A stretch of 64,000 bases of DNA, from sequence record MG748548; one strand, written 5' to 3'. The position numbers were made by a program, and so were the translations under genes. Below, in pieces: positions 7,056 to 48,705 of the stretch. This stretch comes from Escherichia phage EP335. Position 1 is the first letter of the stretch; each line of letters opens with the position of its first letter. Under the pieces are notes generated by a model that saw nothing but the letters and a program-made list of their open reading frames with translations, had not been told where the DNA came from and did not search any database.

Positions 7056-7060
7056 CAACT

Positions 7061-7090
7061 AAGGGGCTTCGGCCCCTTTTCTTGTTTTTA
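7061..7090 (+). terminator. Rho-independent terminator (AAGGGGC-TTCG-GCCCCTT then T-run)
   Basis: GC-rich 7-bp stem, TTCG loop, TTTTCTTGTTTTT tail directly after the 1006-aa gene stop. Confidence 0.65.
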
Positions 7091-7106
7091 AACTTTGGAG
7101 GTACTT

Positions 7107-11994: not shown

Positions 11995-12008
11995 CTAGGA
12001 GATTAATT

Positions 12009-34373: not shown

Positions 34374-34907
34374 TTACACACCCTTAGAAGCAACAACACC
34401 TTCGCTACCATTGTAGCGACCTTTAACTGCATAGGAATGCTCACCAGCATGTGAATGCTCAAACATCACCATCTGACCGACACGCATACCAGCACGAACC
34501 CGTAAGCTGTGGTGCTTGGTTACGTTATGGAACTCAAATGTCAGCTTGCTATTGTTAAACCCAGCGTCTGCCCAACCAGCGTGCAAGTGGTTCAAGCCAC
34601 AACGAGCCATTGAAGATCGTAGAACAAACAAGCTGGAGATGTTATCTGGGAGGTTGAACTCTTCCATTGAGTGAGCCAAGAAGAATTGTCCCGGAGTGAT
34701 GATAATGCCATCTTCAGGGATTTTTACTTCTTTCCACTTGAGGTTTTCTTTCGCATCAATGTCAACAATCCCATCAGCCTGTTCTTCAATAAGGATAGTA
34801 TCACCAACACGGATATCCACACTAGCAGCGTTAACATACTTATGCTCCGCATCCAGAAAACCGTTGTCGATAACGTCGTGTAATTCCATGCTTCCTAATA
34901 AACTCAT
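34374..34907 (-). CDS. dcd: dCTP deaminase (dUTPase-fold)
   Basis: SVDIRVGD, PGQFFLAHSMEEFNLPDN, RSSMARCGL and AGWADAGF align with E. coli Dcd TVDVRLG, PGELALAVTLESVTLPAD, RSSLARLGL, PGWSG. Confidence 0.8.
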   Translation of the reverse strand: MSLLGSMELHDVIDNGFLDAEHKYVNAASVDIRVGDTILIEEQADGIVDIDAKENLKWKEVKIPEDGIIITPGQFFLAHSMEEFNLPDNISSLFVLRSSMARCGLNHLHAGWADAGFNNSKLTFEFHNVTKHHSLRVRAGMRVGQMVMFEHSHAGEHSYAVKGRYNGSEGVVASKGV

Positions 34908-34921
34908 TCTTATTCCTTATG

Positions 34922-36202
34922 TTAATCTGCGATACTGTCGCTTTCGTCCATCCAGACTGGACTGTTAACCTGTCCTAGACGACGAGCTGATGTTTCGTTA
35001 ATAGAGTTAACCCCTGCTGTGCGAGGGTTTGTGTACCACGGTCGAGCTATGGTGCCCTCTCGAATCACTTGGTTCGTTTCGACATGCCATCTGTTTGATA
35101 CCGTGTTGGCTCCGAAGTTACCACCCGCCCCACCACTAACAGGTACAGCTTGAGCTGGTTGGTTTACTCGGTTAGTTCCTGCCCCAAAGGCTGCTGCAAA
35201 TTCAGACACACGTGCATCAAATGAAGAACGAACACGCTGAGTAGGTGATATATCATTTCGTGTATCTACTGCACGAGGCATAGCCCAAGTATCATCTGTT
35301 GAGATATCAGGGGTAGGCTCTTGCTCTAGAGGTTGAAGATTAGCTGTCCATTGACTATTCAGTATACGATAGAAATCTGCACCATAACCACTTCGGATAA
35401 CATCCTCTCTGACACCAAAGAAGCGACTGATATCCCCACCGATTCGGGCTAGTTTGTCATTGTATGCAGGTATGATTATTCCACCCTCTGTCACTAAATC
35501 AGAGACACGACTTGTTGTAAGTGGTGAAGTGATCCAACAATAATAATCAGTAATGTGACCATCGTATCCGAAGAATGCAATCTCTGCATCAGGCCATTTC
35601 TTGTGGACATATGCCACTTCACGGTTAGAACAAACAGGGATTGCACCTGTTTCAGTCATTGCATAGAAGCCGTCAGAAGAGAACCAAAGTGAATCTAGTG
35701 CTAAGAATCCACGACACACGCTCGGGAAAGTAGCAGCCAGCGCCCCAAGTGAGGTAGGTTCATTGAACATTAACTGAATCTTTGCACCCTGATAATTAAT
35801 CTCTAGGATATCTACAAAATTCAAAGAAGACCCAGGGGCATATTGATTATTACTTCGTCCAATATCCTGCTCAATGAGAAGAGATCTTGTTTCAACACCA
35901 TGAGCCTCTGCCCACTCTTTGAAATCTTCAAGGAACAAGCGAGCCTTAGCTCGCCACATCGACCGATCAATTACAGACTGTCTCGGCAATCCACCCTCTG
36001 TAGTGATGAGAAAGATATCAATGTCGTGAGGTTCACGCGTCTGAAAGATTGCATCCCTAACAGCACCACCTGCAATGATAGGGTACACACCATCAGGGAT
36101 TAAACGGTTTGCAATCAACTCGTTAATTAACGTAAGACCAGACACAAGCTGCGGACTATCATCAATCCGTCGACGAATTAGTGCATTAGGGATATTATAC
36201 AT
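34922..36202 (-). CDS. Pol-beta superfamily nucleotidyltransferase (CCA-adding-enzyme-like head domain) with long Gly/Asn-rich C-terminal region
   Basis: IIAGGAVRDAIFQTREPHDIDIFLI matches the GG-x-R-D ... D-x-D nucleotidyltransferase motif of class II CCA-adding / poly(A) polymerase enzymes. Confidence 0.55.
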   Translation of the reverse strand: MYNIPNALIRRRIDDSPQLVSGLTLINELIANRLIPDGVYPIIAGGAVRDAIFQTREPHDIDIFLITTEGGLPRQSVIDRSMWRAKARLFLEDFKEWAEAHGVETRSLLIEQDIGRSNNQYAPGSSLNFVDILEINYQGAKIQLMFNEPTSLGALAATFPSVCRGFLALDSLWFSSDGFYAMTETGAIPVCSNREVAYVHKKWPDAEIAFFGYDGHITDYYCWITSPLTTSRVSDLVTEGGIIIPAYNDKLARIGGDISRFFGVREDVIRSGYGADFYRILNSQWTANLQPLEQEPTPDISTDDTWAMPRAVDTRNDISPTQRVRSSFDARVSEFAAAFGAGTNRVNQPAQAVPVSGGAGGNFGANTVSNRWHVETNQVIREGTIARPWYTNPRTAGVNSINETSARRLGQVNSPVWMDESDSIAD

Positions 36203-36751
36203 TTACATTTTCCAATATAAAGATGGGGGGTCATTTGGGTCAAAGTTTGCAATATGACAAAGATATTTATAAACCTTAACCGTTAAGTTTACGTCCTGTT
36301 CACAATAAGTAAACATGTCCTCTGTAAAGGCATCCCATGCTTCTTCCTGTTCACCGTAATCGCCCTTAAGCTCTTCTAAGAACTCACCCCATTGCTTTAA
36401 GCCATGACCTCTTGGGCCATGTCTAGGGTCGCCTTTCGGATACTCAGGACTGTCACCAATACGGTCAGGTTTAAGATACCGACTCAGACATAAAGTGTCT
36501 AGGACGTTGAATTTGTATTTGATTAATTTCGGATATACTTTCTTCAGAGCTGGAAGGTCGAAGTCAATAATATTATGACCTACAACAATATCAGCCTCTG
36601 TAAGTTTCTTGATACCCTCTTCAATCTGGTGAGGACGAAATCCCCACCGTTCACCAGTTGCTATATCGAAGATAAAGATACACCATACGTTTGTGATATT
36701 GTCGTACAGTGCATCACTCTCAATATCAAATGCGTAGACTTTCTTTACCAC
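36203..36751 (-). CDS. DNA polymerase family A, 3'-5' exonuclease domain (T7 gp5 N-terminal-like), separate gene
   Basis: Exo I AFDIESD, Exo [13 protein letters not shown], Exo [12 protein letters not shown]; [11 protein letters not shown] and [19 protein letters not shown] resemble T7 gp5 N-terminal blocks; stop after ~182 aa. Confidence 0.85.
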
Positions 36752-38535
36752 GGGCTTTTCTCTCCATCTTGAGCAAGAAGTGATGCTGCATCCTCTCCAT
36801 TTGTCAGCGAGAATGGATTTTCTTCATCAATTTCATGATCTTCACGCTCAAGCAACCGTCCCGTCTCTCCTACATACTTCGTATAGCACACCCCTGTTTG
36901 TCCATAGTTACGCTCTTTGAGGAGTCGTATAATGGATAGGTTCTTAGCCAGACCATCTGCTTGTTTGTCACGTTCAAAACCGATGATACATTGACACCAA
37001 CGCATAAGAGAACGAGAACCAGTAAACTGTACCTCTCGAACCTGACCACCTTCTTCATGAGGTGCACCACCTGCCGGAGCATTAAGATGAGATAGCACGA
37101 ATGCTGTGAAGTTTAATTCTTGACACATACCAGCAAGCTCTGAAGCAATCTTACTGATTTCAGTGTTAATCTCTGAAGGTGTTAAATGGGATACCAGAGC
37201 GGTAATGTTATCAAGGATGATAAACTTACACTGGTTTTCAACAACCCAGAAACGGATACACTGTTTAATGTCGGCCCATTCATTCTGACCAAAGTTATCA
37301 TAGAGGAAGAATTTATCTGCATATCGAAGAGCTTCGTTACGCAATGTATCTTCATCATACTCAACATCAGGTCTGTGGAAAGGAATAGATGCTGACTTAC
37401 CTGCAATATTCTTAACGGACATTCCGACCTTCTCTTCCAAGAAGAATCCACCACCATTAAAACCATGCTCAAGACAAAGCCAAGCAACCAGTTCATGTGC
37501 AATCAATGTTTTACCAGAGCCTACACCTCCACCAATTGCTACCATCTCTCCCCAACGAATACCGTAGGTCATCTCATTAAGAGTCTTCCACGGATATGGG
37601 ATACCCCACTCTGCTTTCTTCAGAGCATCATCTAAGCAATCAAAAACAGTTACAGCACCAGCTGGGGATTCCCGCTTCGCTGAATATTTAAGAATGTTAA
37701 ACAACTCCTGACCACGACCAGAGAGGAGCATATCATTCGCATCTTTAAGCTCTTTCTCAACACCGTTGTACTGGAAAGAACCTTTAGGAATACGAGCAAA
37801 CTTCACATGGGGGAACAGAGCACGCCCTTTGGTAAGAGCAATCTCACCAGCATCATCGTTGTCCATACAGAGAACAACCTCTTCAAAACCATTCAAGAAC
37901 TCACGGTTGCGAGATAAAACGGAAGAGATTGACCCTGCACCGAAGGGTAAAGAGACGCACGCTGGTTTAATATTTGTTGCATTTGTAAAAGCTGTAAGAA
38001 CATGGAAACCAGACATGCAAGACAAAGGGTCTTCAAAGATGAAGAGCTTCTTATTGTACACATCTCCACGTTTAGCCTGTGCCATACCAAACAAATCAGC
38101 TTCTTTCACACTACCGATGTAATAAAACTTTTTACTATCAAGTAGTTTAACCTCATAACCAACAATGTTTCCATCACGTTCACGAGGGAAGAAGTAACTG
38201 TCTGGTGTCTGACCATCAGTTTGACTGAGACCGATACGACATTCAAAACGCTCTGATACAGCTTTAGGGATTAATCGACGAGTGAGTTCTCCTTGAGGTA
38301 ACTCCAAGCAATCATCCAAGACTTCTCGAAGTTCTTCAGGGGACAGCTCTTTCTTTTCGTTTGGTGTAGGTGTCGTGCCTTTCTCAAAGACTTCGTAATT
38401 ACCACACCGGTTACAACTACCCCACTCTTCACCGGATTCCTCATTACGGAAGAGAATCATGTGATTGTGGGTTTTATCACGACCATGAGAGATGCACTCT
38501 TTACAGCCTGTATCTCCCAAAATGATCTTTGACAT
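36745..38535 (-). CDS. Primase-helicase (T7 gp4-like)
   Basis: N-terminal zinc-binding Cys cluster, [15 protein letters not shown], DnaB-family Walker [10 protein letters not shown]. Confidence 0.9.
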
Positions 38536-38572
38536 GCTCTATCCTCCTTGGATTCTCCTTGAGCAAACTACC

Positions 38573-38782
38573 TTACTTATAAAAACTTCGAATCATGTCC
38601 CAGATTTCTTCCTGCTGGACCCTAAAGAAAGCTAAACGTGTCGATGTACGTTCAATAAATTCTTCACTATGCTTTTCTCTATCTAGCATACTGACAAGCT
38701 TTTCATATTTATTGATCTTCCATCGCATTTTTAAATAGTCTGATTCCAGTGTCCTTAACCTCTGACACTCAATCAAACCCAT
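38573..38782 (-). CDS. Hypothetical protein
   Basis: 69-aa ORF. Confidence 0.4.
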   Translation of the reverse strand: MGLIECQRLRTLESDYLKMRWKINKYEKLVSMLDREKHSEEFIERTSTRLAFFRVQQEEIWDMIRSFYK

Positions 38783-39201
38783 TAGTTATCCTCTGACAGA
38801 TAAAGAGACCAGTCACCAGATTCAACCAGCTCATCCTGCTCTTCATCGATGTGATAAATCCAAGCAGTGATAGTTTCACCACTATCCATTACAACTTCGA
38901 TAGGAGTACGCTTATAGAAAGTGTGTGGGTTGTCATTACCGCGATGCCCTTCCAGCATATCATAAGCACCCTCAACACCATCCATATCCGTCTTAAATAC
39001 TTCAACACGAACAGGTTTACCGTTGCTGTTGTGTTCCAGAGAAACACTTGGGAAGTATGAACCACCGTAGCGGTACAAGTTGTAGTTTTCTTTAGTGAAG
39101 CCTTCACCAATTGATTCAGCACCTGCACGAGCATTCACTCGGAAGTTGGCCTGACCAGTGCGAAGAGAACCGTAAGTTGCTACATAAATTACTTCTGACA
39201 T
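38782..39201 (-). CDS. Gamma-glutamyl cyclotransferase-like (AIG2/GGCT family) protein
   Basis: N-terminal VATYGSLRTGQ (YGSL motif) and downstream AYDMLEG with conserved Glu. Confidence 0.6.
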   Translation of the reverse strand: MSEVIYVATYGSLRTGQANFRVNARAGAESIGEGFTKENYNLYRYGGSYFPSVSLEHNSNGKPVRVEVFKTDMDGVEGAYDMLEGHRGNDNPHTFYKRTPIEVVMDSGETITAWIYHIDEEQDELVESGDWSLYLSEDN

Positions 39202-39202
39202 T

Positions 39203-39412
39203 TTAAATACCTTTCCAATCGTTCATGATTTTTTCAATATAAGCACACTGTTGATCAGTGGCACCTGTTACAAATATTTCACACCCTAACTGTTCACAGA
39301 AAGGATTGAGTATTAAGATTTGAGATTTACCATATGAGTGATGCTCTCTGTAAATAACACAACCAGCATCCCAAACTGAATCTAATGCCTTACTTAACCT
39401 TTTGTGTTTCAT
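39203..39412 (-). CDS. Hypothetical protein
   Basis: 69-aa ORF. Confidence 0.4.
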   Translation of the reverse strand: MKHKRLSKALDSVWDAGCVIYREHHSYGKSQILILNPFCEQLGCEIFVTGATDQQCAYIEKIMNDWKGI

Positions 39413-39468
39413 ACAGTCTCCAGTTAATCCGAACTAGCCTCCTCTTTCGAAGAAGCTAGAGCAGATTG

Positions 39469-39651
39469 CTATGCTGTGAAGTTTTTGATTACACCGCAAA
39501 TAACATCTGTTTCAAACGTACCCACCAGAACATCGTCTCGGTAGAAATTAATCGCTTTACCATCTCGGTTAAAGTGATCTGCTTCAATGAGCATAGATTG
39601 TACCTGACCATCTGGGGTGGAGGTTCGAAAGATGACGTTATACTGACTCAT
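39469..39651 (-). CDS. Hypothetical protein
   Basis: 60-aa ORF. Confidence 0.35.
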   Translation of the reverse strand: MSQYNVIFRTSTPDGQVQSMLIEADHFNRDGKAINFYRDDVLVGTFETDVICGVIKNFTA

Positions 39652-39890
39652 AAAGAAGTTACTCCCTTATCTTCTTGAGCGATAGAGATGATACGACTCA
39701 CACACTGCATTGAGTACTCATCACCACGCTTTAGGAACGTTACGATAGCAGAGAATTGATTACCAATCATCCGCTCATTTGTAATACCGAACTCTTTGCA
39801 GAGTTCTTTCAGTTTGCTACGAGAACCAATAATCAGAGGTTCTTTTTCTTCAGTCATTCCACGACTAATCAAATCTTCAATAGACAACAT
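39648..39890 (-). CDS. Hypothetical protein
   Basis: 80-aa ORF; start coupled to neighbours. Confidence 0.4.
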   Translation of the reverse strand: MLSIEDLISRGMTEEKEPLIIGSRSKLKELCKEFGITNERMIGNQFSAIVTFLKRGDEYSMQCVSRIISIAQEDKGVTSL

Positions 39891-39913
39891 AATTCCATTC
39901 CTTGGGGGTTTAA

Positions 39914-41131
39914 TTAAAAGTTTACTGCTTCACCATCAACGGTAGTTACTGATGCAAGACGACGAACACGGCCAATCTGTTCACGACTGATTGGAGTATT
40001 CCAACCAGAGCGATAGAAGTTGCGACCACAGAAGAACACAACAACATTAGAAGCAATCCGTCCGTAGTTACGATCAGGGTGATTGATGTTAGCAAGATAA
40101 TAACCACGGGTCAAGTTTGCATTTTCGTTGATATGCCGAGCATTTGGTGCAGTTGTTTCAGCTTGCATCATTTCAGGAACATCTTCTACGATAGGCTCAA
40201 CCGTAGGTTCATCACCAGCTAAAGCAAAGTTCTCATCAGCAGCCTCTTCTGCATCATCTTCCAGCTCCACAGTTTCCTGAATAACTGGCAGAGGGTATGC
40301 TACACGATACTCAGGGTTTTGACCACGGAGAGATTCAACATACTGCAAGAAGTTGTGCTGGTAAGTTTCCAGAGTTGTACCAGTCAGGCCCGGAGCGGTA
40401 TTAACTTCTAACACCCACGCTTCCTCACCTTTACTGATAAGATCAACAGCACCAAAGTTAAGACCGAGTGCTTGTACTGCTTTGTGCGCTTGAATTAGAA
40501 CCTGATCAGGTGGTGAATCATTAAAAGAGTTGGAATAAACCCAACCAGTGTGGTGATTACGAACATCTTCACGATAGTCAGGGTTATCACGATACCCATT
40601 ACGACGAATCTTCTTCTGGACGTAAGTAATAACACCTTCAAAAACATGCACACGCCATTCACGACGTGGACCAGTGATTGCTTTTGTATACAGAGGAGCC
40701 TCAGCAACACCCTCACGAGGAAGACGAACAGTGATGCCTTCACCAGAGTGACCATTAAGTACACCACGTTCGTAAACAATACTGTTTTGGTTCCAGTTAA
40801 GTGCTTCATCTCGGTTAGTGGTATACTCAACAGTCTTGACTTCCGCAAGACGCATGGCATTGAAAGCTGCAACCTTGTTAGCCGCACGATTCAATGCTGC
40901 TACGTTGTTCAGAACCGTTGCACCTTCGAAGAAGGATTCTTGATAACGACGGTTTCCATAGTTGATAATCACGTCACCAGAACGAGCACGGAATCGGCTG
41001 GTTCCATCAGACAGAAGAGCCATTGCGTTGGCATTGATTCGGTTGTCACGGAGATGTTGATTCAAGCTGGATACCAGAGCATTAACAGAATCAGAAGGGC
41101 CATAAGGGAGAACACGGATACGAGTAGTCAT
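39914..41131 (-). CDS. ATP-grasp domain ligase
   Basis: WVLEVNTAPGL matches the ATP-grasp E-x-N-x-x-PG loop; 405 aa. Confidence 0.7.
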   Translation of the reverse strand: MTTRIRVLPYGPSDSVNALVSSLNQHLRDNRINANAMALLSDGTSRFRARSGDVIINYGNRRYQESFFEGATVLNNVAALNRAANKVAAFNAMRLAEVKTVEYTTNRDEALNWNQNSIVYERGVLNGHSGEGITVRLPREGVAEAPLYTKAITGPRREWRVHVFEGVITYVQKKIRRNGYRDNPDYREDVRNHHTGWVYSNSFNDSPPDQVLIQAHKAVQALGLNFGAVDLISKGEEAWVLEVNTAPGLTGTTLETYQHNFLQYVESLRGQNPEYRVAYPLPVIQETVELEDDAEEAADENFALAGDEPTVEPIVEDVPEMMQAETTAPNARHINENANLTRGYYLANINHPDRNYGRIASNVVVFFCGRNFYRSGWNTPISREQIGRVRRLASVTTVDGEAVNF

Positions 41132-41133
41132 TT

Positions 41134-41367
41134 TTAGATACCTTTAAGTTTAAGAATTTCGTTGCGAGTACGTTGGATACGTTCTTCAAGAGTATGATAA
41201 TCAAAGATGCACATCTCTTCTGCTTCATCAGAAGGTGCATCCATTAAACCCATAGCAATCGGATACACCTTTCGCTGTTCCGTTGTCATGTCCTGTAGCC
41301 GGAGTCGTTGATACTCCAGCAGGGTAATTTTCGGCTTGTTAGTTTCCTTGCTTGACATGAGGCTCAA
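41134..41367 (-). CDS. Hypothetical protein
   Basis: 77-aa ORF. Confidence 0.4.
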   Translation of the reverse strand: MSLMSSKETNKPKITLLEYQRLRLQDMTTEQRKVYPIAMGLMDAPSDEAEEMCIFDYHTLEERIQRTRNEILKLKGI

Positions 41368-41572
41368 CCTTGATACCTTTCAGTTTCACATAGTCAGCCA
41401 GCACGTTGTTAATAACTGTTGGGAAAGGAATCTCAACAGGTGCATTAACTAACCCACCAATACCCTCTTGCATCCACTTCTGGATTGCACGAAGGTTATC
41501 ACATCCTGTGCTTGTCATTGGAATACGGCGAGTGGTTACAACGTTATCCAACATCATCTTACGAATTTCCAT
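41339..41572 (-). CDS. Hypothetical protein
   Basis: 77-aa ORF. Confidence 0.4.
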   Translation of the reverse strand: MEIRKMMLDNVVTTRRIPMTSTGCDNLRAIQKWMQEGIGGLVNAPVEIPFPTVINNVLADYVKLKGIKVEPHVKQGN

Positions 41573-41582
41573 AATACACCTC

Positions 41583-43601
41583 TTAATTATGACCTTTACA
41601 GTGCACTGAATCGCACACCACTTGATTGGTATTGTTTAGTGTGCAGAGTTCTGCATCACGCCACGGAATCTTTTTAAAACAGACTGCACAAAACCCAAGA
41701 GTAGACCAGAGGGCTTTTGTGAAGGTTGCTGATCGGTTTCCATCGAAGGACGCAACTGTTCTGGTAATTGAGACTTTTGACTCACGAAAGGTTTCCGCTG
41801 CTGGAGCGGGTTCCTCCTTTGGGGTAGTCACTGCAATAGCATAAACACCACCCCAACGCTTCTCAATGTAAGCACCGAACACATCTTCCAGAGTGATTTC
41901 ACTCTTACGTTTGGTTGAGGATTCCATGACAATCATGTTGTCCAGAATCTTTTGATCAACACGAAGAGCTACTTCAGGACGTCGAGCACTTGTTGTATCA
42001 ACATACTTGGTCCAAACATAACCCTCTTTCAGAGTGACTTGAGTTGCTTGCTTCTTTGCTTTATTAGCACAGATTTTACAAACATCGTCACCACGAAGTT
42101 TACTGAACTCTTCATCAAATTCAAAGTCAGACTTCACTTCGCCGCACACTGAACAAACGCCGATAGGAATCTCATCCTCTTCAACGTCTTCCACTTGCTT
42201 CTGGATAGAATCAAAACAAGCTTTATGCCAATATGCTTGGTATGCGAAGATCGCACTTGGTGCTTCTTTCCAGTCAATGTGCTTATCACATCCACCACAA
42301 TCACCGTGGGAATGGGCTTCCCAGAACTTACGAGTGATAGTCACCCCATTCTTGCTGACAAAACTATCCTCTGCATCAAAAGGGATATCATCATCGAAAT
42401 CAGCTGTAGTGCTTTCCGGCTCCTTTTTCGACAAGTCAAAGAAGTGACCAGAGATCAACACCAAACGAATCATGCTATTAACTTCAGAGATACAGCCAAC
42501 CGTACCACGGTAAACCATATGCTTGTTCTTAAGAGCAGCTTCGTAATCAGTTTGCAGGATGTTATGAACATCACCCTCAATATACTCTTGAGCTTTGTCA
42601 TCATAAATATAACCAACCATCTTACCGCGATCGGTATCTTTATAACAAACAAACTCGTGAGGAATAATATCAACCTGCATATCACGACGGACATCAACAC
42701 CTTTGTCAGAGGCGATCTTGTTTTGTTTCAAGATTGCTTCACGACGACGTACATCACCTGCGGTTACGCCGGGCTTTCTTTGCTCGTCGCTGTTCCCGTT
42801 TACGTAACTTTTTGTCACGCTTGAGTGATTGTTGCTGTAGCTGTTCGAGTAATAACTTCCCCAACGCGTTGCTACCGTAAAAACCGGGAGTTCATGTACG
42901 ACCTCCTCTACCAAAGTCATCTTGTTGTCAGAAACATCAAAGATGTACTCTGTACCGACTTTACACTCAAAGTGCTCATCAATTCGGTTCTTGTGGCTCT
43001 TAGAACGCTGAAGAATCCACATTAGCATCGCTTCTTCTGAAGCACCAAACCATGAAGTTCCCAGACGGGCCAGATGGAAAGGACGTTCATCGTTACGAAT
43101 GATGTGAAGACGGTTATCACTTGCATCATGCCAGATTAGAGTGAATGCACCATCCAACTTCTGAATAGTCTCTGCTGCACCAATCTTGTTAATAGAGTGG
43201 CAGATGTTCTCACTATCAACCTCAAAAGCCTTACTGTCAGGCAGAAGGTCTTGATCAACTAAGGTTCCGTTATGAACCAGAGTAATATTTCCGTGAGAGA
43301 ATGGGTGAGCGTTACGTGAGTTAATAGCGCCTTTCGTAGCATGTCGGCTGTGACCAACAATCCATGAAGGAGGCACTGTGTAATTAGTAAGGCCAGTTGT
43401 CAGCTCGGTGTACTCTTTCTGTAACATGAAAGCATAGGAAGGCAGTGCTTCTTTGTAAGAGAACACAGATCTTTCGCTTTTACGCTGACCGAAAATACCA
43501 GTTGAGTGTTGACCACGAAATACACCAGCATAAAGAAGCTGGTTGTAAATATCTAAGTCATAACTTGAGAGGCTTCCACCTGCTAATACGATACCACAAA
43601 T
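41583..43601 (-). CDS. Class II (Ntn-hydrolase) glutamine amidotransferase domain protein with Cys-rich C-terminal extension; probable non-canonical ATT start
   Basis: Frame stays open 45 codons above the track start; first codons after the in-frame TAG are AAA ATT TGT GGT ATC (K-I-CGIV..., classic Ntn Cys1 context); AGGTGG sits 8 nt upstream of ATT; GHSRHATKG...NAHPF...LVHNG follows. Confidence 0.65.
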   Translation of the reverse strand: MCGIVLAGGSLSSYDLDIYNQLLYAGVFRGQHSTGIFGQRKSERSVFSYKEALPSYAFMLQKEYTELTTGLTNYTVPPSWIVGHSRHATKGAINSRNAHPFSHGNITLVHNGTLVDQDLLPDSKAFEVDSENICHSINKIGAAETIQKLDGAFTLIWHDASDNRLHIIRNDERPFHLARLGTSWFGASEEAMLMWILQRSKSHKNRIDEHFECKVGTEYIFDVSDNKMTLVEEVVHELPVFTVATRWGSYYSNSYSNNHSSVTKSYVNGNSDEQRKPGVTAGDVRRREAILKQNKIASDKGVDVRRDMQVDIIPHEFVCYKDTDRGKMVGYIYDDKAQEYIEGDVHNILQTDYEAALKNKHMVYRGTVGCISEVNSMIRLVLISGHFFDLSKKEPESTTADFDDDIPFDAEDSFVSKNGVTITRKFWEAHSHGDCGGCDKHIDWKEAPSAIFAYQAYWHKACFDSIQKQVEDVEEDEIPIGVCSVCGEVKSDFEFDEEFSKLRGDDVCKICANKAKKQATQVTLKEGYVWTKYVDTTSARRPEVALRVDQKILDNMIVMESSTKRKSEITLEDVFGAYIEKRWGGVYAIAVTTPKEEPAPAAETFRESKVSITRTVASFDGNRSATFTKALWSTLGFCAVCFKKIPWRDAELCTLNNTNQVVCDSVHCKGHN

Positions 43602-43675
43602 TTTCTAATCCACCTGAAGGGTAAACCCTTTCATCTAATTAACCTTTAGTTGTGCCCCTTTCGAGGCACCCATTG

Positions 43676-44776
43676 TTACAGCAGTCGTTCTAACTGAATT
43701 TCCAAGTGATCTGGAATATATTCAGTGACGTTGTTATCGGAGACGCCAGATTCACGCATCATGTTGAGCATGCTACGAATCTGTCCTTCTGTTGCTTCAC
43801 GAGTTTCACTAATCTCTGTTTCATACAGAGCCATGATCTCGTTATGAACATCTTGAGCATTACCACGGACATATCCGAGGAAGCCATAGAAGTCAGACAT
43901 ATCACGAAGGGATACAACTACCGACCCACTATTATCAAGAGTTTGTAAACGAATACGCCCAACCTGACGGACAGAACGATTACGACAGAACAGGATATCA
44001 CGAGCCAGACGATAACCACTATCAAGATCTTCGTGTCTTGGGGTGTAGTCTAGAGGTAGGTGAGGGAGCATAGGGTCAAAACGAACCCTGTTAAGCATCT
44101 CAACAAACTCTTCATTGTCCATCTCTGCATTTTCAACTGCTAATTTCTTAAGAACCAAGAAGCGGTTTACCAGATTTAACAGCTGACCTTTCTTCCACTT
44201 AGGCTCTGAGATACGGAACTCAACAGAACCGAACTGAGCCAGAGGAAGTAGGTTAAGTGATGTGTACTTATCCCAACGATCAACAATGTGTCGGAAGAAG
44301 TTCTCACCTTCGTAGTTAAATGCTTCAGAAGCATTCATTACTTGAGCCTGCACTACCGCAAAAGCAGGACAGAAATTACTACGGTAACGGTGATAACCAG
44401 AGCACTTAAACATCAATGCTTCATAGAAAGTCCACCCAAGGATAACTTTCTTAACGATATTGCTATCAGCATCTCGCATATCCATATGAACGTGAGTGGA
44501 ACAGCGCCAAGTCCCTTCTGCTTCGGACTCCATCACTGCCTCACTCAGATTGTTGATAGCGTCAAACAGTTCTACACCATTGTAAGGGCGAGAACAGACC
44601 ATTTCACATCCGTTGCGAAGCGAGCCATCCTCTGTACATTCCCACATATCTGCTTCGATATGATCGTCACCTTCAAGCTCCAGCTCAATACCAATACCGC
44701 ATTGGAATGCGATACTCGGATGTGCTTCACTCAGACGATTACTACGGTATCCAAAAGCTTGCGCTACAGTTGTCAT
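43676..44776 (-). CDS. Amidoligase (GCS2/YbdK-like carboxylate-amine ligase family)
   Basis: N-terminal GIGIELELEG and later STHVHMD resemble GCS2-type amidoligase blocks. Confidence 0.55.
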   Translation of the reverse strand: MTTVAQAFGYRSNRLSEAHPSIAFQCGIGIELELEGDDHIEADMWECTEDGSLRNGCEMVCSRPYNGVELFDAINNLSEAVMESEAEGTWRCSTHVHMDMRDADSNIVKKVILGWTFYEALMFKCSGYHRYRSNFCPAFAVVQAQVMNASEAFNYEGENFFRHIVDRWDKYTSLNLLPLAQFGSVEFRISEPKWKKGQLLNLVNRFLVLKKLAVENAEMDNEEFVEMLNRVRFDPMLPHLPLDYTPRHEDLDSGYRLARDILFCRNRSVRQVGRIRLQTLDNSGSVVVSLRDMSDFYGFLGYVRGNAQDVHNEIMALYETEISETREATEGQIRSMLNMMRESGVSDNNVTEYIPDHLEIQLERLL

Positions 44777-45387
44777 AACGACTCCACTAACTCCACAGTG
44801 TATTGGTTAAAATCACTTTGAATATGCTTGAACACATCAAGCAGTTGTACGGTCTGACGACCACGGCTGTCATGTCCAGCACCGAGAAGCACGCGACCAA
44901 CGTGTGCTCCTTTATAATAAACAAGACCATCGGAAGGGTTGATGAAGATAAAGCGAGTCAACAAACCTTCAAAAGATGGATTAAACAGGTTATAAACCAT
45001 CTCACCGGAGATGTTACGACCAAGAGAAGTTACGCCACGGAGTTTGTTACCCATCAACCCCTTAGCTCGCTGACGAACTGGATTGATATGGGTCCAACTT
45101 ACCATGTTACGACCATGTTGAAGATAACCAACATCAGGGGATTCCAGAATCAGGTTAGGGTTGAACACTCCAATCTGAACTGTTGTACGGTTAAACCCTG
45201 AGTCTGTTTTAACCCAACGCTCTGCTTCGAACATCAAAGCCATCTCTGCTTCGTGAGAGAAGTCATCACGAGAGAACTCGCCTTGTTGGAATACGTTCAT
45301 AACAAACAATGGGATGTTTAAGTTCCCACGTCTTTCAGCAATCCATGTCCCACAATAGTAATGAGAGAAGTCAGTTACTAAGCTCAC
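44773..45387 (-). CDS. Hypothetical protein inside the amidoligase cluster
   Basis: 204-aa ORF coupled to both neighbours. Confidence 0.45.
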   Translation of the reverse strand: MSLVTDFSHYYCGTWIAERRGNLNIPLFVMNVFQQGEFSRDDFSHEAEMALMFEAERWVKTDSGFNRTTVQIGVFNPNLILESPDVGYLQHGRNMVSWTHINPVRQRAKGLMGNKLRGVTSLGRNISGEMVYNLFNPSFEGLLTRFIFINPSDGLVYYKGAHVGRVLLGAGHDSRGRQTVQLLDVFKHIQSDFNQYTVELVESL

Positions 45388-45396
45388 GATAACCCC

Positions 45397-46284
45397 TTAC
45401 GCTACCTGTAAACGTTTCAAGAACACATCTGCTTCACGAACATCGTTGGTGTTGATGATCTGGTGCAGCTTTTCAATCGGAAGGCGAGAGTGGAGGCCCA
45501 TCAAGAACTCCATGTCGCTGTTTTGTACAACCTTGTCAACTTGATCATACACAAATTGACGATCTTCTTTCTTGCCAATCCAGAAGTTTGACAGAGAGCG
45601 ATACTCAATGCCATAAGGTTTGTAACGGATTGCGGATGCTTTACCGTATAGCTCTTTACGACGAGCATCACCGTCCATCAGAACAGCAGGCAATGACAGG
45701 AAGTAATCACACAGAACGCCCAGCATCATCTGAACCTTCTTATTCACATCCAGAGAGCCAGTGACACCGATATGCACATGACCGCCTGCTGTACGCAAGC
45801 CCTTGTTCTCTGAAGTTGGGGAAGCATTCTTTTGACCAGTGAATGCGTTGAAGTCTGGAGTACAACCAAACACGAAAGCGGACGGATGGAATGATTCCAA
45901 TTCTTCTTTAGAGAAGATATGAGAACTTACACCCAGAGCCGCTTCCATGTCCTGTTTCTTCAGAACTTCGTTGGTAAGATCAATACCACGCTGAACGTTG
46001 TCATTAAACGCTTCAAAACCTTGTTGTGGGTTGATATCAAATTCAGCAAGAACGTTGTCTTCTTGGAGACGAACATCCTTAGCCAGATCGATTTTATTTT
46101 CTTTAGAACAGCCCAGCTTTCCAGCAACAGAGGTGATGATGCCAGAAGAAGTACGAACAAACATTTCAGGGTCAGTGCCGATTAAAAAGATGCGCTTAGT
46201 CATTGTAGTATTCCACCAATTCTTTAAAGAGGGATGTGATTGTTTCTTTGTTGCTCTCTGTACTAGAGTCACAACGACTTTCAA
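45397..46284 (-). CDS. Second amidoligase-like protein (GCS2-like)
   Basis: IGTDPEMFV and GGHVHIGV in positions analogous to the first amidoligase. Confidence 0.5.
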   Translation of the reverse strand: MKVVVTLVQRATKKQSHPSLKNWWNTTMTKRIFLIGTDPEMFVRTSSGIITSVAGKLGCSKENKIDLAKDVRLQEDNVLAEFDINPQQGFEAFNDNVQRGIDLTNEVLKKQDMEAALGVSSHIFSKEELESFHPSAFVFGCTPDFNAFTGQKNASPTSENKGLRTAGGHVHIGVTGSLDVNKKVQMMLGVLCDYFLSLPAVLMDGDARRKELYGKASAIRYKPYGIEYRSLSNFWIGKKEDRQFVYDQVDKVVQNSDMEFLMGLHSRLPIEKLHQIINTNDVREADVFLKRLQVA

Positions 46285-47125
46285 TACGTTCTAAGAAACC
46301 ATTTACACTGATGTTAGAAATCTTTTCATCAAGAGATGAACGTTTCCAACCAGTGCTCATAGACCAAACTCTCAAAAAGGTACTCATTGAAGAGTACATC
46401 TCTGCGTTTTGGTTTCGACGACGAGCAATACGACGAAGGGCTGCACGGTCATGGTTTCGGATATACCCTGATGTGTTATCACCTTCTCCAACTTTGTTTT
46501 GCAACCAAACATCGGTTGAAAACTCATCTGTATTGCAAATGATCGGAAGAAATGCAAATGCTGGTAAGTCGTGCGGTAAGTAGATAGATGTTGATTCATC
46601 AGTGGAATCATTAACTCTATCAAAGTTAAGCTCCCCAAAGAAATCCTTACTTACCCCAGCAAGAGCTAGAGCTAATCCAACACGACGACGGAATAGCCAT
46701 TCTTCTCTATCATCAACTCCCTCTGAAAGAAAATCCATAGATTCATACTCGCAATCGAGATAACTACGGAAAGTCATTAGTCCTGTAAAAACTTTATCTG
46801 CTGCGTGTTCACGAAGATCAACCTCTACACTATTAGCAGAAGTGATTGTGAACATATCTTTGTACATAGAACAGGAGTTTAGTACATCAGCAGTATCCAA
46901 CAAATGAGACTCAATCTCATCCATGTTGCAGTGAGGCCAGTAGTTAATCTTACCCATGTGTGCTGTGAAGTTATCTAAGCTGGTTCGATTACTCAGGCCA
47001 TTAATATCACGAGTGCTGAAGTTGTGCATAGAGTTGTGGATACCGAAACAGACTCGGCTCGTAAAACTCTGCTCACCCACCATATCACTAACTTCTACAG
47101 GAGCTAATGTTGTGGAAATTGCCAT
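46196..47125 (-). CDS. Hypothetical protein
   Basis: 309-aa ORF; 5' end overlaps the preceding gene, start uncertain. Confidence 0.45.
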   Translation of the reverse strand: MAISTTLAPVEVSDMVGEQSFTSRVCFGIHNSMHNFSTRDINGLSNRTSLDNFTAHMGKINYWPHCNMDEIESHLLDTADVLNSCSMYKDMFTITSANSVEVDLREHAADKVFTGLMTFRSYLDCEYESMDFLSEGVDDREEWLFRRRVGLALALAGVSKDFFGELNFDRVNDSTDESTSIYLPHDLPAFAFLPIICNTDEFSTDVWLQNKVGEGDNTSGYIRNHDRAALRRIARRRNQNAEMYSSMSTFLRVWSMSTGWKRSSLDEKISNISVNGFLERIESRCDSSTESNKETITSLFKELVEYYND

Positions 47126-47137
47126 TGTCTTTAACCT

Positions 47138-48331
47138 TTAATTTCCTAAGAAAAGTTTCGTGAGAATTGAATCCCACTCCGTACTAGGCAGTACATCAAA
47201 ACTGCTATTATTTGACAGATTCGACTGTTGAAAGTGGCGAATCATTGTGTAAGTATTAACACGGTCATTGCCAAATCGAGTATACAACAACTCATTTCGA
47301 GTCTTGTCTGATAGGGAAATAGCTTTGGCAAAAGCTACAATCAGCATAGGCTCTTTGAGGGCACGATCTTGAAGGGCTTCCGGTTGAAGAATAGGTAAGA
47401 ACATTGAGTTGTTTACATACAGCTCATGCTCTTCGTGTCCGGGAACGTCATACCAAACACTCGAATAGTCTTCATCACGGAAATGTCCTTCACCAGCCAT
47501 ATATGACGGTTGACGCCACGCAGTCTGGCGAGGTTCTGCCATATTAGCTCCGATGCCCACTGTGTACAGTGTTACAGGGAACAGGCAGTTATCGTATTCA
47601 TTACCAGTAAAGGCAACTCGTACTTCGCCAAACAGATTCTCTTTTGCGTTAATCAATCGAGAATAGGCAAGAGCTTGTAACGGAGACCAATCGTCCATAA
47701 AGAGCTTATCAAGGAAAGTCCACACATTTGCTTGCTCATCTTCTTGATAAAACAGACGATTAACCATAAGATAGAACAGGCAACGATCAGCAGGCACTGG
47801 TTCAGATACATCTTCTGTTACCACACCCATAAAACCTTTTTCATGCCAAACAAGACATGAAGGACGATCTTTATCCATGAAAGCTTCAAGTGCTTCCATA
47901 ACTGACTTGACAGTTACATCAGGTCGTTCACGATATTCAGCCCAAAGCTCAACTGCGTTCTTAGGCTTTTCATCCCCTACATCAGCGTGATAGAAAGCAT
48001 ATTGGAAGGAGATGATGTTGTTGCTCCCATCCTTTCCACGCATAGGGATATGGGTTCCAGAGTTCCAGATAATACGAATATCTTCCATTGACATTAAACT
48101 GCTTAGGAGTTCATCGCTGCCAGAGCTTTGCATCAAGCTATAGCTGCTATCCCAAACATGGACATACTGCGTCCAGCCTTCATTGGCTTCGTAGGTAATG
48201 GGGTCGTAATAATCACTATCTTCGTCACAATCATCACCACCGTGGTAGTTGCTGTGCTGAAGAAAGCCATAGCAAGGAGGCCAGACTGTTACTACATTGT
48301 CCTGCTTATCCTGCAATGTTACTGGAAACAT
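47138..48331 (-). CDS. Hypothetical protein
   Basis: 397-aa ORF. Confidence 0.5.
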   Translation of the reverse strand: MFPVTLQDKQDNVVTVWPPCYGFLQHSNYHGGDDCDEDSDYYDPITYEANEGWTQYVHVWDSSYSLMQSSGSDELLSSLMSMEDIRIIWNSGTHIPMRGKDGSNNIISFQYAFYHADVGDEKPKNAVELWAEYRERPDVTVKSVMEALEAFMDKDRPSCLVWHEKGFMGVVTEDVSEPVPADRCLFYLMVNRLFYQEDEQANVWTFLDKLFMDDWSPLQALAYSRLINAKENLFGEVRVAFTGNEYDNCLFPVTLYTVGIGANMAEPRQTAWRQPSYMAGEGHFRDEDYSSVWYDVPGHEEHELYVNNSMFLPILQPEALQDRALKEPMLIVAFAKAISLSDKTRNELLYTRFGNDRVNTYTMIRHFQQSNLSNNSSFDVLPSTEWDSILTKLFLGN

Positions 48332-48342: not shown

Positions 48343-48705
48343 TTATTGTTGTTTGATCAACTCAACGGACTTACGGATGTAAAGAATATCACGGAAGTTA
48401 CGGTAGTTGTTCATGAATTGATGCTTCTGGAACTCCGCTTCAAGCAGAGATTCTTTGGCACTTTCATAACTCTTACGGGCAAGATACACAACCCGCTCTG
48501 GTAATACGTTTGCACGACGGATGATATACTTGTGAGCTTTCATATTGCTCTGCTCACGAGATATCTTACTTTTCGCTACCGTAATGCCATTTGCAAGCCA
48601 AACAAGCTCTTGCTCAAGCTCTTCGTTGGACATTCCACCGAGGTTTGATGCAACCTTGTTCAGAGTTTCAATGTTAACGTTGCCCTTGATGGGACGTGTA
48701 TTCAT
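48343..48705 (-). CDS. Hypothetical protein
   Basis: 120-aa ORF. Confidence 0.45.
   Translation of the reverse strand: MNTRPIKGNVNIETLNKVASNLGGMSNEELEQELVWLANGITVAKSKISREQSNMKAHKYIIRRANVLPERVVYLARKSYESAKESLLEAEFQKHQFMNNYRNFRDILYIRKSVELIKQQ

What the first reader, a model, noticed from the sequence alone, without database searches (positions are those of the whole stretch)
38782..46284. Phage-borne cluster of amide-bond enzymes: GGCT-like, ATP-grasp, Ntn glutamine amidotransferase and two GCS2-like amidoligases
Five enzymes of peptide/amide-bond chemistry sit co-directionally within 7.5 kb, between the replication genes and the small-protein arrays: GGCT-like (38782..39201), ATP-grasp ligase (39914..41131), class II glutamine amidotransferase with a Cys-rich C-terminal half (41583..43601) and two GCS2/YbdK-like amidoligases (43676..44776, 45397..46284). 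Such combinations have been predicted computationally to synthesise or conjugate a gamma-glutamyl-type metabolite or peptide tag, but I know of no demonstrated substrate or function in a phage. Candidate targets are a virion or host protein, a nucleotide, or a small molecule.
Basis: partly seen in the sequence, partly recalled or inferred. Interest (0 to 1): 0.8.

Follow-up and report, generated by a model that had tools for sequence, protein, structure and literature searches.

The report
Known phage amide-ligase gene cassette
This is a real set of amide-bond-forming enzyme genes, but it is the already described phiEco32-type cassette found in hundreds of lytic phages; its product is still unknown, and close relatives that infect laboratory E. 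coli now make that testable.

Summary
The five ORFs exist on the minus strand and belong to the stated enzyme classes. Catalytic residues are near-invariant across 37-79 distinct homologues of each family. Two starts need correcting: the amidotransferase starts at ATT 43601, and the second ligase at ATG 46203, not 46284.

The window is a Nieuwekanaalvirus (Gordonclarkvirinae) about 97% identical to phages KBNP1711 and Bas89. The cluster is the phiEco32-type cassette predicted by Iyer et al. in 2009. Pfam PF14395 is named after it, and later papers call it a "putative peptidoglycan modification module". I found no experimental function in the library.

New here:
- The cassette is larger than reported (38782-48331).
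- Its invariant core is five genes: PF14395 ligase, a ~200-aa beta-barrel protein (X3), PF12224 ligase, class-II amidotransferase and ATP-grasp ligase.
- Two upstream ORFs (X1, X2) are fast-evolving paralogues of an unknown family.
- The GGCT-like gene and a Peptidase_C26 gamma-glutamyl hydrolase replace each other between lineages, which points to a gamma-glutamyl amide intermediate.
- The cassette is essentially confined to phages.

Best reading (confidence 0.4): an early-expressed cytoplasmic pathway that attaches and later removes a gamma-glutamyl group on an unidentified amine. Rivals are a protein tag, cell-wall precursor modification and DNA modification.

The parts
47138..48331 (-). 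X1, 397 aa. Unknown family, paralogue of X2. Very acidic (net charge -31). N-terminal 'PPCYG' motif.
   Evidence: ORF. No Pfam hit. PHROG 13063, unknown function. The X2-seeded HMM captures all 9 X1 members at E about 1e-55. Only 44-46% identical to phiEco32-group homologues, whereas the ligase is 80% identical. Charge.
46196..47125 (-). X2, 309 aa. Unknown phage family. C26 and R120 invariant, Q209 nearly so, in a 29-sequence alignment ('CFG' and 'PADR' motifs).
45397..46203 (-). COOH-NH2 ligase type 2 (PF14395), 268 aa. The true start is ATG 46203.
   Evidence: Pfam 1.6e-7. PHROG 3815, 1e-113. D11, E13, E54, H142, H144, E200 and R202 are invariant in 74 distinct homologues. Present in 315 phage records and 502 IMG/VR stretches.
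44773..45387 (-). X3, 204 aa. Universal core member, probably a non-enzymatic beta-barrel adaptor. Its stop overlaps the Amidoligase_2 start (ATGA).
43676..44776 (-). Amidoligase_2 (PF12224), 366 aa.
   Evidence: Pfam 1.3e-5, above gathering. PHROG 7469, 2e-146. E31/E33/E35, D50, E58, H95/H97 and E186/R188 are near-invariant in 75 homologues.
41583..43601 (-). Class-II (Ntn) glutamine amidotransferase, 672 aa, with an ATT start. Glutaminase domain about residues 1-230, then an unassigned middle region and three Cys-rich zinc-ribbon-like motifs.
   Evidence: start codon. Pfam GATase_6, 3.8e-14. Alignment to GlmS covers R73/N98-G99/D123 equivalents. A family profile matches the GlmS N-terminal domain at E 4e-19 and only over that domain. 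C2, R83, N108-G109 and D126 are invariant. No Pfam hit for the C-terminal 438 aa.
41339..41572 (-). Small ORF, 77 aa, DUF7195. Conserved between the amidotransferase and ATP-grasp genes.
   Evidence: Pfam DUF7195, 1.1e-17. Present in 20 loci across Gordonclarkvirinae, Privateer-like phages and Bruynoghevirus.
41134..41367 (-). Small ORF, 77 aa, restricted to Gordonclarkvirinae and their nearest relatives.
   Evidence: No Pfam hit.
39914..41131 (-). RimK-like ATP-grasp ligase, 405 aa. Catalytic part about residues 1-280, then an acidic linker and a ~70-aa C-terminal domain.
   Evidence: Weak Pfam hits. PHROG 2599, 9e-177, and PHROG 20552 for residues 338-405. The Mg-binding region aligns with RimK and Ddl structures. 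K86, E158, R160, K174, D230, E242 and N244 are near-invariant in 74 homologues. The orthologue was detected by mass spectrometry in an SU10 preparation.
39203..39890 (-). Three small ORFs (80, 60 and 69 aa) between the ATP-grasp and GGCT genes. Lineage-specific, unknown function.
   Evidence: Found in only 3-9 loci. The one scanned (39648-39890) has no Pfam hit.
38782..39201 (-). GGACT/AIG2-like gamma-glutamyl cyclotransferase, 139 aa.
   Evidence: Pfam 4.2e-17. PHROG 2520, 1.7e-43. Y10-G11-x-L13 and E84 are invariant in 37 homologues. Largely mutually exclusive with Peptidase_C26 across lineages.
48343..48705 (-). 120-aa ORF immediately upstream of X1, conserved with the cassette in Gordonclarkvirinae and close relatives. 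Possible first gene of the unit.
   Evidence: PHROG 11370, unknown function. Found in 8 loci. A terminator-like hairpin lies at 48907-48890 just upstream. Membership of the cassette is uncertain.

Best explanation
This is the phiEco32-type amidoligase cassette. It is an early-expressed operon, confined to phages, that sits at the head of the replication module.

The invariant core has five genes:
- a PF14395 carboxylate-amine ligase;
- a small beta-barrel protein (X3) that probably docks onto or recruits substrate for the ligases;
- a PF12224 carboxylate-amine ligase;
- a class-II glutamine amidotransferase;
- a RimK-like ATP-grasp ligase.

Proposed mechanism (inferred): the proteins form a short cytoplasmic, ATP-driven pathway. 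Each of the three ligases activates a carboxylate as an acyl-phosphate and joins it to an amine. At least one of the bonds is a gamma-glutamyl amide. The amidotransferase hydrolyses glutamine to feed ammonia (or glutamate) into one step. The GGCT-like enzyme later removes the gamma-glutamyl group as 5-oxoproline; in other lineages a Peptidase_C26 removes it as glutamate. Glutamate would therefore serve as a transient handle or protecting group, or the conjugate would be turned over.

I judge the acceptor more likely to be a small cytoplasmic amine or peptide than DNA or a protein. Its identity is unknown.

What is shown: the folds and families, intact catalytic residues, conserved gene order, phage restriction, and that the proteins are made.
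What is inferred: every chemical step, the direction of the pathway, the role of X3, and the acceptor.
For: - Enzyme classes are assigned and catalytic residues are near-invariant.
- The order ligase-X3-ligase-amidotransferase-ATP-grasp is kept in about 85 loci with 30-40% protein identity. All 49 well-covered loci hold all four enzymes. X3 is present in every locus.
- Genes are tightly packed, with overlapping stops and starts. One natural X3::Amidoligase_2 fusion exists.
- Two unrelated gamma-glutamyl-bond-cleaving enzymes substitute for each other: GGCT only in 27 loci, Peptidase_C26 (PF07722, E 6e-23) only in 15, both in 2, neither in 5; Fisher p = 1e-6.
- None of the proteins has an N-terminal hydrophobic segment or a clear membrane-spanning stretch, so the chemistry is cytoplasmic.
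- SU10 orthologues of the ATP-grasp, amidotransferase and GGCT proteins, plus a 23-kDa hypothetical protein, were detected by mass spectrometry and listed as early gene products.
- From my own knowledge: a GS-like ligase paired with a C26 hydrolase is the logic of the E. coli Puu and Pseudomonas Pau polyamine pathways, and an ATP-grasp ligase paired with a GGCT-family enzyme (BtrJ/BtrG) adds and removes a protective gamma-glutamyl group in butirosin biosynthesis.
Against: - No substrate is identified by any analysis here.
- The GGCT/C26 exclusivity is confounded by phylogeny. The two enzymes mark two large clades, so the Fisher p-value overstates independence.
- Five well-covered loci show neither enzyme within the flanks.
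- The amidotransferase has no recognisable acceptor domain, so where its ammonia goes is a guess.
- X3's beta-barrels and the fast-evolving X1/X2 proteins would fit a macromolecular target at least as well as a small one.
- The best PDB matches of the ATP-grasp are RimK-type enzymes, and RimK modifies a protein.
- The published hypothesis (cell wall) is different and has not been excluded.
Confidence: 0.4

Rival explanations
1. Protein or peptide tagging. The ligases build a glutamate-containing tag, or an isopeptide, on a host or phage protein, in the manner of RimK polyglutamylation of ribosomal protein S6 or pupylation by PafA/Dop. X3 or X1/X2 would act as adaptors or targets, and the GGCT enzyme would recycle released gamma-glutamyl-lysine.
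For: - The best structural-sequence matches of the ATP-grasp are RimK-type alpha-L-glutamate ligases, and its PHROG annotation agrees.
- X3 is made of SH3/Tudor/KOW-like barrels, typical macromolecule binders. It has a conserved flexible loop R-x-P-x-RQ-x-x-KG with lower pLDDT.
- X1/X2 evolve about twice as fast as the enzymes, as host-interacting proteins often do.
- The Pfam match of the cyclotransferase is to the GGACT type, which to my knowledge acts on epsilon-(gamma-glutamyl)-lysine.
- Iyer et al. 2009 proposed peptide modifications for such systems (title cited).
Against: - There is no Pup-like or ubiquitin-like small protein. None of the six small ORFs ends in Gln, Glu or Gly-Gly.
- The X3 termini are not conserved, so it is not a LysW-type C-terminal carrier.
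- X1/X2 are absent from about half of the cassettes.
- The X2-Dop similarity is not supported by profile comparison.
- Peptidase_C26 and GGCT enzymes are known (my knowledge) for small-molecule substrates.
Confidence: 0.2
2. Cell-wall (peptidoglycan precursor) modification. This is the published guess: the ligases and amidotransferase alter the stem peptide of cytoplasmic murein precursors so that the infected cell's surface changes and superinfecting phages are excluded.
For: - The hypothesis is stated for this cassette in PMC5498523, PMC11945000 and PMC10580990, citing Iyer 2009 and Hardies 2013.
- The ATP-grasp also aligns with D-Ala-D-Ala ligases.
- Stem peptides contain a gamma-glutamyl bond and can be amidated by glutamine-dependent enzymes (my knowledge).
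- Early expression would suit superinfection exclusion.
Against: - No experiment supports it in any paper I could read.
- No Mur-ligase, transpeptidase or envelope-targeted protein belongs to the cassette, and all products appear to be soluble.
- A GGCT-type enzyme needs a free alpha-amino group on an L-gamma-glutamyl residue. In murein the glutamate is D and N-acylated (my knowledge).
- In every lineage the cassette sits next to the primase/helicase gene, not the lysis or envelope genes.
- A lytic phage with a short latent period gains little from remodelling a wall it is about to destroy.
Confidence: 0.13
3. DNA or nucleotide hypermodification. The cassette attaches an amino-acid-derived group to a base or nucleotide. 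This would explain why Gordonclarkvirinae resist restriction-modification systems without any known modification pathway.
For: [quoted passage not shown]
- The window keeps 25 EcoRV, 9 EcoRI, 5 EcoKI and 95 EcoP1 sites, so site avoidance alone cannot explain that resistance.
- The cassette abuts replication and nucleotide-metabolism genes in all lineages.
- Lee et al. 2021 saw unassigned amidoligase and amidotransferase genes next to thymidine-hypermodification genes in viral contigs (PMC8989533).
Against: - The window has none of the known entry points: no dUMP/dCMP hydroxymethylase, 5-HMUDK, aGPT-Pplase, DpdA or TET/JBP. The phage encodes ThyX and dCTP deaminase, which is ordinary dTTP supply.
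- The genome shows strong restriction-site avoidance (CCWGG 2 observed against 84 expected; 13 six-base palindromes absent; all palindromes 614 against 922). This is the signature of DNA exposed to restriction, not of blanket modification.
- No cassette protein has a recognisable DNA-binding, glycosylase or transferase domain.
Confidence: 0.1

Closest known systems
phiEco32-type phage amidoligase cassette (Iyer, Abhiman, Burroughs & Aravind 2009; 'peptidoglycan modification cassette' of Hardies et al. 2013)
   Same: Same gene families, same order, same position next to the primase/helicase. The ligase is 79.5% identical to phiEco32's, and Pfam PF14395 is named after it. Papers list the same set in phiEco32, 7-11, LUZ24, PaP3, tf, PA11, CW02 and RIO-1.
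   Different: Nothing essential differs; this is a member. Relative to published descriptions, this analysis adds X3 as a universal core gene, shows that X1 and X2 are paralogues, and finds GGCT and Peptidase_C26 alternating between lineages. I could not read the 2009 paper itself.
Gamma-glutamyl polyamine pathways: E. coli PuuA/PuuD, Pseudomonas PauA/PauD (own knowledge)
   Same: A glutamine-synthetase-fold ligase makes a gamma-glutamyl amide on an amine, and a Peptidase_C26 (class-I amidotransferase-like) hydrolase later removes the glutamate. Peptidase_C26 genes are cassette members in 17 of 49 well-covered loci.
   Different: The phage ligases belong to PF14395 and PF12224, not the GlnA/PuuA family. 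There is no oxidase or dehydrogenase. The cassette additionally has an ATP-grasp ligase, a class-II amidotransferase and X3. The window itself carries GGCT, not C26. No substrate has been shown.
Butirosin side-chain pathway: BtrJ (ATP-grasp) and BtrG (GGCT family) (own knowledge)
   Same: An ATP-grasp ligase adds a gamma-glutamyl group that a GGCT/AIG2-family enzyme later removes by cyclisation. This is the 'glutamate as protecting group' logic proposed here.
   Different: Butirosin chemistry runs on an acyl carrier protein and ends on an aminoglycoside. The phage cassette has no carrier protein, acyltransferase or PLP enzyme.
RimK polyglutamylation of ribosomal protein S6
   Same: The best solved-structure matches of the ATP-grasp are RimK-type alpha-L-glutamate ligases, with the Mg/ATP-site residues conserved. 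PHROGs labels the family 'ribosomal protein S6 glutaminyl transferase'.
   Different: The similarity covers only about 60 residues at E 0.01-0.5, and the Pfam RimK score (16.1) is below gathering (21). There is no evidence that S6 is a substrate. RimK works alone, not in a five-gene module.
Pupylation system: PafA ligase and Dop deamidase (own knowledge for the biology)
   Different: There is no Pup-like tag gene and no proteasome link. X2 lacks the ligase catalytic motifs, and profile comparison with the cassette ligases is negative.
Gamma-glutamyl cycle / glutathione synthesis: GCL, ATP-grasp glutathione synthetase, GGCT (own knowledge)
   Same: The same three enzyme folds appear in one pathway: a GCS-superfamily ligase, an ATP-grasp ligase and a gamma-glutamyl cyclotransferase.
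   Different: The phage has two different GCS-superfamily ligases plus an amidotransferase and X3. Nothing indicates cysteine or glycine as substrates.

Membership tests
phiEco32-type phage amidoligase cassette | PF14395 COOH-NH2 ligase type 2 present | tested here: met
   Pfam 31.3 bits against a cut-off of 25; 79.5% identical to the phiEco32 protein.
phiEco32-type phage amidoligase cassette | PF12224 Amidoligase_2, class-II amidotransferase, ATP-grasp and GGCT genes co-directional with it | tested here: met
phiEco32-type phage amidoligase cassette | Conserved gene order and position upstream of the primase/helicase | tested here: met
   Same order in Bruynoghevirus Ab22, CW02, Privateer and about 80 IMG/VR loci. 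Primase/helicase at 36745-38535.
Class-II (Ntn) glutamine amidotransferase | Cys as first residue after Met removal | tested here: met
   ATT-Cys start. Cys2 invariant in 16 diverse homologues.
Class-II (Ntn) glutamine amidotransferase | Glutamine-binding and oxyanion residues (GlmS R73, N98, G99, D123) | tested here: met
   Aligned; invariant. Family profile against the GlmS N-terminal domain gives E 4e-19.
Class-II (Ntn) glutamine amidotransferase | A recognisable acceptor (synthase) domain fused to the glutaminase domain | tested here: not met
   The C-terminal 438 aa have no Pfam hit. The profile matches PDB proteins only over the glutaminase domain. The acceptor may be a separate protein.
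ATP-grasp / RimK family | ATP- and Mg-binding residues (Lys, Asp, Glu-x-Asn) | tested here: met
   D230/E242/N244 align to RimK and Ddl. K86, K174, E158, D230, E242 and N244 are near-invariant in 74 homologues.
ATP-grasp / RimK family | Score above Pfam's curated threshold for RimK or Dala_Dala_lig_C | tested here: not met
   16.1 against 21 bits, and 18.7 against 24 bits. This is a divergent ATP-grasp; membership of RimK proper is not established.
ATP-grasp / RimK family | Glutamate ligation to the C-terminus of ribosomal protein S6 | not testable with these tools
   Needs biochemistry.
   Pfam reports only PF12224 and PF14395. No PDB relatives by sequence or profile. The Glu / His-x-His / Glu-x-Arg motif pattern is shared. 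hhalign between the two phage families finds only the His-x-His segment, E 0.01. The relationship is therefore at superfamily level and inferred.
GGCT / GGACT (AIG2-like) cyclotransferases | Pfam GGACT above threshold, YGSL motif and catalytic Glu | tested here: met
   63.2 against 22.8 bits, full-length match. Y10-G11-x-L13 and E84 invariant in 37 homologues.
Known phage DNA hypermodification pathways (thymidine, 7-deazaguanine, Mom) | Entry enzyme present (dUMP/dCMP hydroxymethylase, 5-HMUDK, aGPT-Pplase, DpdA or TET/JBP) | tested here: not met
   The annotation of the 97%-identical Bas89 genome lists none. Window ORFs scanned give ThyX, dCTP deaminase, PhoH, a metallophosphoesterase and a ferritin-like protein. 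I did not profile-scan every small ORF.
Pup-like or ubiquitin-like tagging systems | Small tag protein with C-terminal Gln/Glu or Gly-Gly encoded in the cluster | tested here: not met
   The C-termini of the six small ORFs are QGN, KGI, TSL, FTA, KGI and FYK.

The most novel reading that the evidence does not exclude
The cassette could be a phage-encoded polyamine-handling module. The ligases would gamma-glutamylate putrescine or spermidine, and GGCT or Peptidase_C26 would release or recycle them, giving the phage control of free polyamine levels while its DNA is replicated.

This would counter the host response described in P. aeruginosa, where infected cells shut down polyamine catabolism and the accumulated polyamines block phage genome replication (PMC9992862). 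It would be a new kind of metabolic counter-defence carried by hundreds of lytic phages.

The reading fits three observations: the pairing of GS-fold ligases with C26 or GGACT-type enzymes, the constant position beside replication genes, and restriction of the cassette to phages. No result here tests the substrate.
Probability: 0.1. Interest if true: 0.8.

Novelty: already known. Interest (0 to 1): 0.45.

Why it matters
The cassette is common.
- Its ligase is in 315 of 50,697 deposited phage genomes.
- At least 502 IMG/VR stretches encode it.
- Its X3 protein has 6,723 cluster representatives at 50% identity.
- It is almost absent from 100,044 cellular species genomes.

It costs these small genomes 8-10 kb, it keeps every catalytic residue, and its proteins are made early in infection. 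Seventeen years after it was predicted, no product has been identified. Whatever it makes is likely to be a new phage-specific metabolite, modification or counter-defence.

The practical point is that close relatives of this window (BASEL phages Bas86-94) infect E. coli K-12 with restored O-antigen. Knock-outs, isotope tracing and defence-panel plating are therefore now feasible.

As a finding from this window it is a re-discovery, not a discovery.

Tried and rejected
- **Solved structures.** Sequence and profile searches with the two ligases found nothing useful, so their fold assignment rests on Pfam and motifs. The same search with the GGCT-like protein gave only spurious hits.
- **Profile comparison tool.** Protein comparison on two alignments failed, so I ran hhalign locally instead.
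- **X3 as a carrier protein.** Rejected as a C-terminal LysW-type carrier because its termini are not conserved.
- **X3-like domains in long Amidoligase_2 proteins.** None found in the N-terminal extensions.
- **Bacterial context.** A scan of 100,044 species genomes returned only 17 hits, all MAG or short contigs, so no cellular operon is available to infer function from.
- **Transcription signals.** Promoter and terminator scans gave nothing beyond chance for sigma-70 sites.
- **Literature.** Ten searches found no experimental function. The 2009 source paper is not held.
- **My ORF caller.** It first missed X3 in 22 loci and the ligase in the window because of its overlap rules. Both errors were found and corrected.

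Full report
**What the window is.** Region 38500-46500 is 97.6% identical to Escherichia phage KarlSchell_Bas89 and 96.7% identical to KBNP1711. It is about 74% identical to the phiEco32/SU10 group. KBNP1711 is a Nieuwekanaalvirus (Gordonclarkvirinae, Mtkvariviridae). The minus strand is transcribed from small early ORFs (above 48.7 kb), through the cluster, into primase/helicase, the exonuclease subunit, a nucleotidyltransferase, dCTP deaminase, ThyX and DNA polymerase.

**Observation check.** All five ORFs exist and are co-directional on the minus strand.
- Pfam gives GGACT (4e-17), GATase_6 (3.8e-14), Amidoligase_2 PF12224 (1.3e-5) and COOH-NH2_lig PF14395, 'phage phiEco32-like' (1.6e-7). 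All four are above their curated thresholds.
- The ATP-grasp gives only sub-threshold Pfam hits. It matches its PHROG family at 9e-177, and its Mg-binding segment aligns with RimK and Ddl structures.
- The amidotransferase begins with ATT at 43601, 8 nt after AGGTGG, followed by Cys.
- The second ligase begins at ATG 46203, not TTG 46284.
- Catalytic residues are present, and near-invariant across 37-79 distinct homologues of each family.

**The cassette is larger than reported.** I compared annotated distant phages (Bruynoghevirus Ab22, Salinivibrio CW02, crAss-like cr108_1, Proteus Privateer) and 80 IMG/VR loci retrieved with a ligase alignment. I used my own ORF calling and iterative HMM searches.
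- All 49 loci with enough flanking DNA contain both ligases, the amidotransferase and the ATP-grasp, almost always in the order PF14395 ligase, X3, PF12224 ligase, amidotransferase, ATP-grasp. The primase/helicase usually follows.
- X3 (44773-45387, 204 aa) has no Pfam family. A homologue lies between the two ligase genes in every locus, and its stop overlaps the next gene's start.
- The X3 family has 6,723 representatives at 50% identity in 1.84 billion proteins. One of them is a natural X3::Amidoligase_2 fusion lying just downstream of a PF14395 gene.
- X1 (47138-48331) and X2 (46196-47125) are paralogues: the X2 profile captures every X1. The family occurs in 41 of 85 loci. C26 and R120 are invariant and Q209 nearly so.
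- X1 and X2 evolve about twice as fast as the enzymes. They have no convincing structural relative.
- A DUF7195 small ORF (41339-41572) is conserved between the amidotransferase and the ATP-grasp in 20 loci.

**Two comparative results bear on function.**
- The GGCT-like gene is not universal. In the CW02/Zobellviridae-like and crAss-like branches a ~218-aa Peptidase_C26 gamma-glutamyl hydrolase (PF07722, E 6e-23) lies upstream instead. Among the 49 well-covered loci, 27 have GGCT only, 15 have C26 only, 2 have both and 5 have neither (Fisher p = 1e-6). Two unrelated enzymes that both cleave gamma-glutamyl amides replace each other. This is the best evidence here that a gamma-glutamyl amide lies on the pathway. 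The caveat is that the two states follow clades, so the p-value overstates independence.
- The cassette is essentially confined to phages. There are 502 confirmed stretches in IMG/VR, against 17 in one genome each of 100,044 bacterial and archaeal species. All 17 are on MAG or short contigs.

**Literature.**
- The cluster was described computationally by Iyer et al. in 2009. That paper is not held; it is cited.
- Later genome papers call it a putative peptidoglycan modification cassette that might block superinfection (PMC5498523; PMC11945000 of 2025). PMC10580990 says the functions 'remain to be explored'.
- Ten full-text searches found no experimental function.
- SU10 proteomics detected the ATP-grasp, amidotransferase and YtfP/GGCT proteins and a 23-kDa hypothetical protein, listed as early gene products.
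- The BASEL paper reports that Gordonclarkvirinae resist restriction-modification systems without any known modification pathway or inhibitor.

**How it most likely works.**
- Shown: three ATP-dependent amide ligases of two folds, a glutaminase with an intact GlmS-type active site but no recognisable acceptor domain, a universal beta-barrel partner, a gamma-glutamyl-cleaving enzyme, proteins without obvious export or membrane segments, and early expression.
- Inferred: a short cytoplasmic pathway in which carboxylates are activated as acyl-phosphates and joined to amines. At least one link is a gamma-glutamyl amide. Glutamine supplies ammonia or glutamate. The gamma-glutamyl group is later removed as 5-oxoproline (GGCT) or glutamate (C26).
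- The logic resembles the Puu/Pau polyamine pathways and the BtrJ/BtrG protecting-group step of butirosin synthesis (my own knowledge). I put 0.4 on this reading with a small-molecule acceptor.

**Rivals.**
- A protein tag (0.2) is favoured by the RimK-like ATP-grasp, the X3 fold and the fast-evolving X1/X2. It lacks any tag protein.
- The published cell-wall idea (0.13) has no supporting experiment and fits GGCT chemistry and the genomic position poorly.
- DNA modification (0.1) would explain the RM resistance. EcoRV and EcoRI sites are indeed retained, but no known entry enzyme is present. The genome also shows strong restriction-site avoidance (CCWGG 2 against 84 expected; 13 six-base palindromes absent), which is typical of unmodified DNA.

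**Novelty and score.** The entity is already known and named, and the window nearly duplicates published genomes, so this is a re-discovery. The function is an open question of real interest, now testable in K-12-infecting relatives. My additions (X3 as a universal core member, X1/X2 paralogy, GGCT/C26 substitution, phage exclusivity) narrow the question but do not answer it. Interest 0.45.

**Limits.**
- The X2 fold remains unresolved.
- Every chemical step is inferred.

Noticed in passing
window 43599-43601 (- strand): The amidotransferase uses the rare start codon ATT, 8 nt after a strong AGGTGG Shine-Dalgarno sequence, followed by the catalytic Cys. My ORF calls for phiEco32-group loci were also truncated at this gene, which suggests the non-canonical start is conserved. 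It may be a translational control point.
   Followed up: partly
L001 (Bas89) 3520-4011, 6839-7348, 11173-12484 versus window 38535-38573, 41572-41583, 45397-46203: Bas89 carries three HNH homing-endonuclease insertions in or next to the cassette that the window lacks. One splits the COOH-NH2 ligase CDS into two joined pieces (intron-like). The window holds the uninterrupted alleles.
   Followed up: no
whole window 1-64000: Strong, selective restriction-site avoidance. CCWGG occurs 2 times against 84 expected, GATC 130 against 240, GGCC 49 against 111. Thirteen six-base palindromes are absent (including BamHI, PstI, KpnI and SacI sites). All 64 six-base palindromes together occur 614 times against 922 expected. 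EcoRV, HindIII and NdeI sites are not avoided.
   Followed up: partly
window 30979-31635 and 34374-34907 (- strand): The phage encodes ThyX (Thy1, 7.7e-44) and a dCTP deaminase (6.3e-35). This is an ordinary dTTP supply route and argues against the BASEL paper's suggestion that dU replaces T.
   Followed up: partly
L106 857-2539 (protein P0083): A single 560-aa protein fuses an X3 domain (residues 4-203) to Amidoligase_2 (residues 227-408), directly downstream of a COOH-NH2_lig gene, on a 3.3-kb NCBI contig. It is a possible Rosetta-stone link between X3 and that ligase, but only one example was seen.
   Followed up: partly
L004 4018-4842 (Ab22 ORF17) and L007 4154-5092 (Privateer gp101): An SPFH/band-7-like protein gene lies a few genes upstream of the cassette in two distant phage groups. 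I did not check whether the window has a counterpart.
   Followed up: no
window 47138-48331 and 46196-47125 (- strand): X1 and X2 are strongly acidic (net charge -31 and -18), and X1 has an Asp/Glu-rich N-terminal patch. I did not test whether they could act as DNA mimics or restriction inhibitors in these RM-resistant phages.
   Followed up: no
window 34922-36202 (- strand): A 426-aa nucleotidyltransferase (PHROG 12715; only a faint PolyA_pol head-domain hit in Pfam) sits between the polymerase exonuclease subunit and the dCTP deaminase. The BASEL authors flagged it as a possible DNA-modification gene. Its role is unknown.
   Followed up: no
window 41339-41572 (- strand): The DUF7195 small protein has a conserved 'vvtRKxPMtxxgCDxLRai' N-terminus that resembles a ribbon-helix-helix strand-helix pattern. 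It may be a small regulator embedded in the cassette.
   Followed up: no
L006 (crAss-like phage cr108_1) 4700-11756: A rearranged version of the cassette occurs in a human-gut crAss-like phage, between the primase and uracil-DNA glycosylase genes. Its order is ATP-grasp, two paralogous ~300-aa proteins, Peptidase_C26, COOH-NH2 ligase, amidotransferase, then a long Amidoligase_2. The cassette therefore crosses very distant phage orders.
   Followed up: partly
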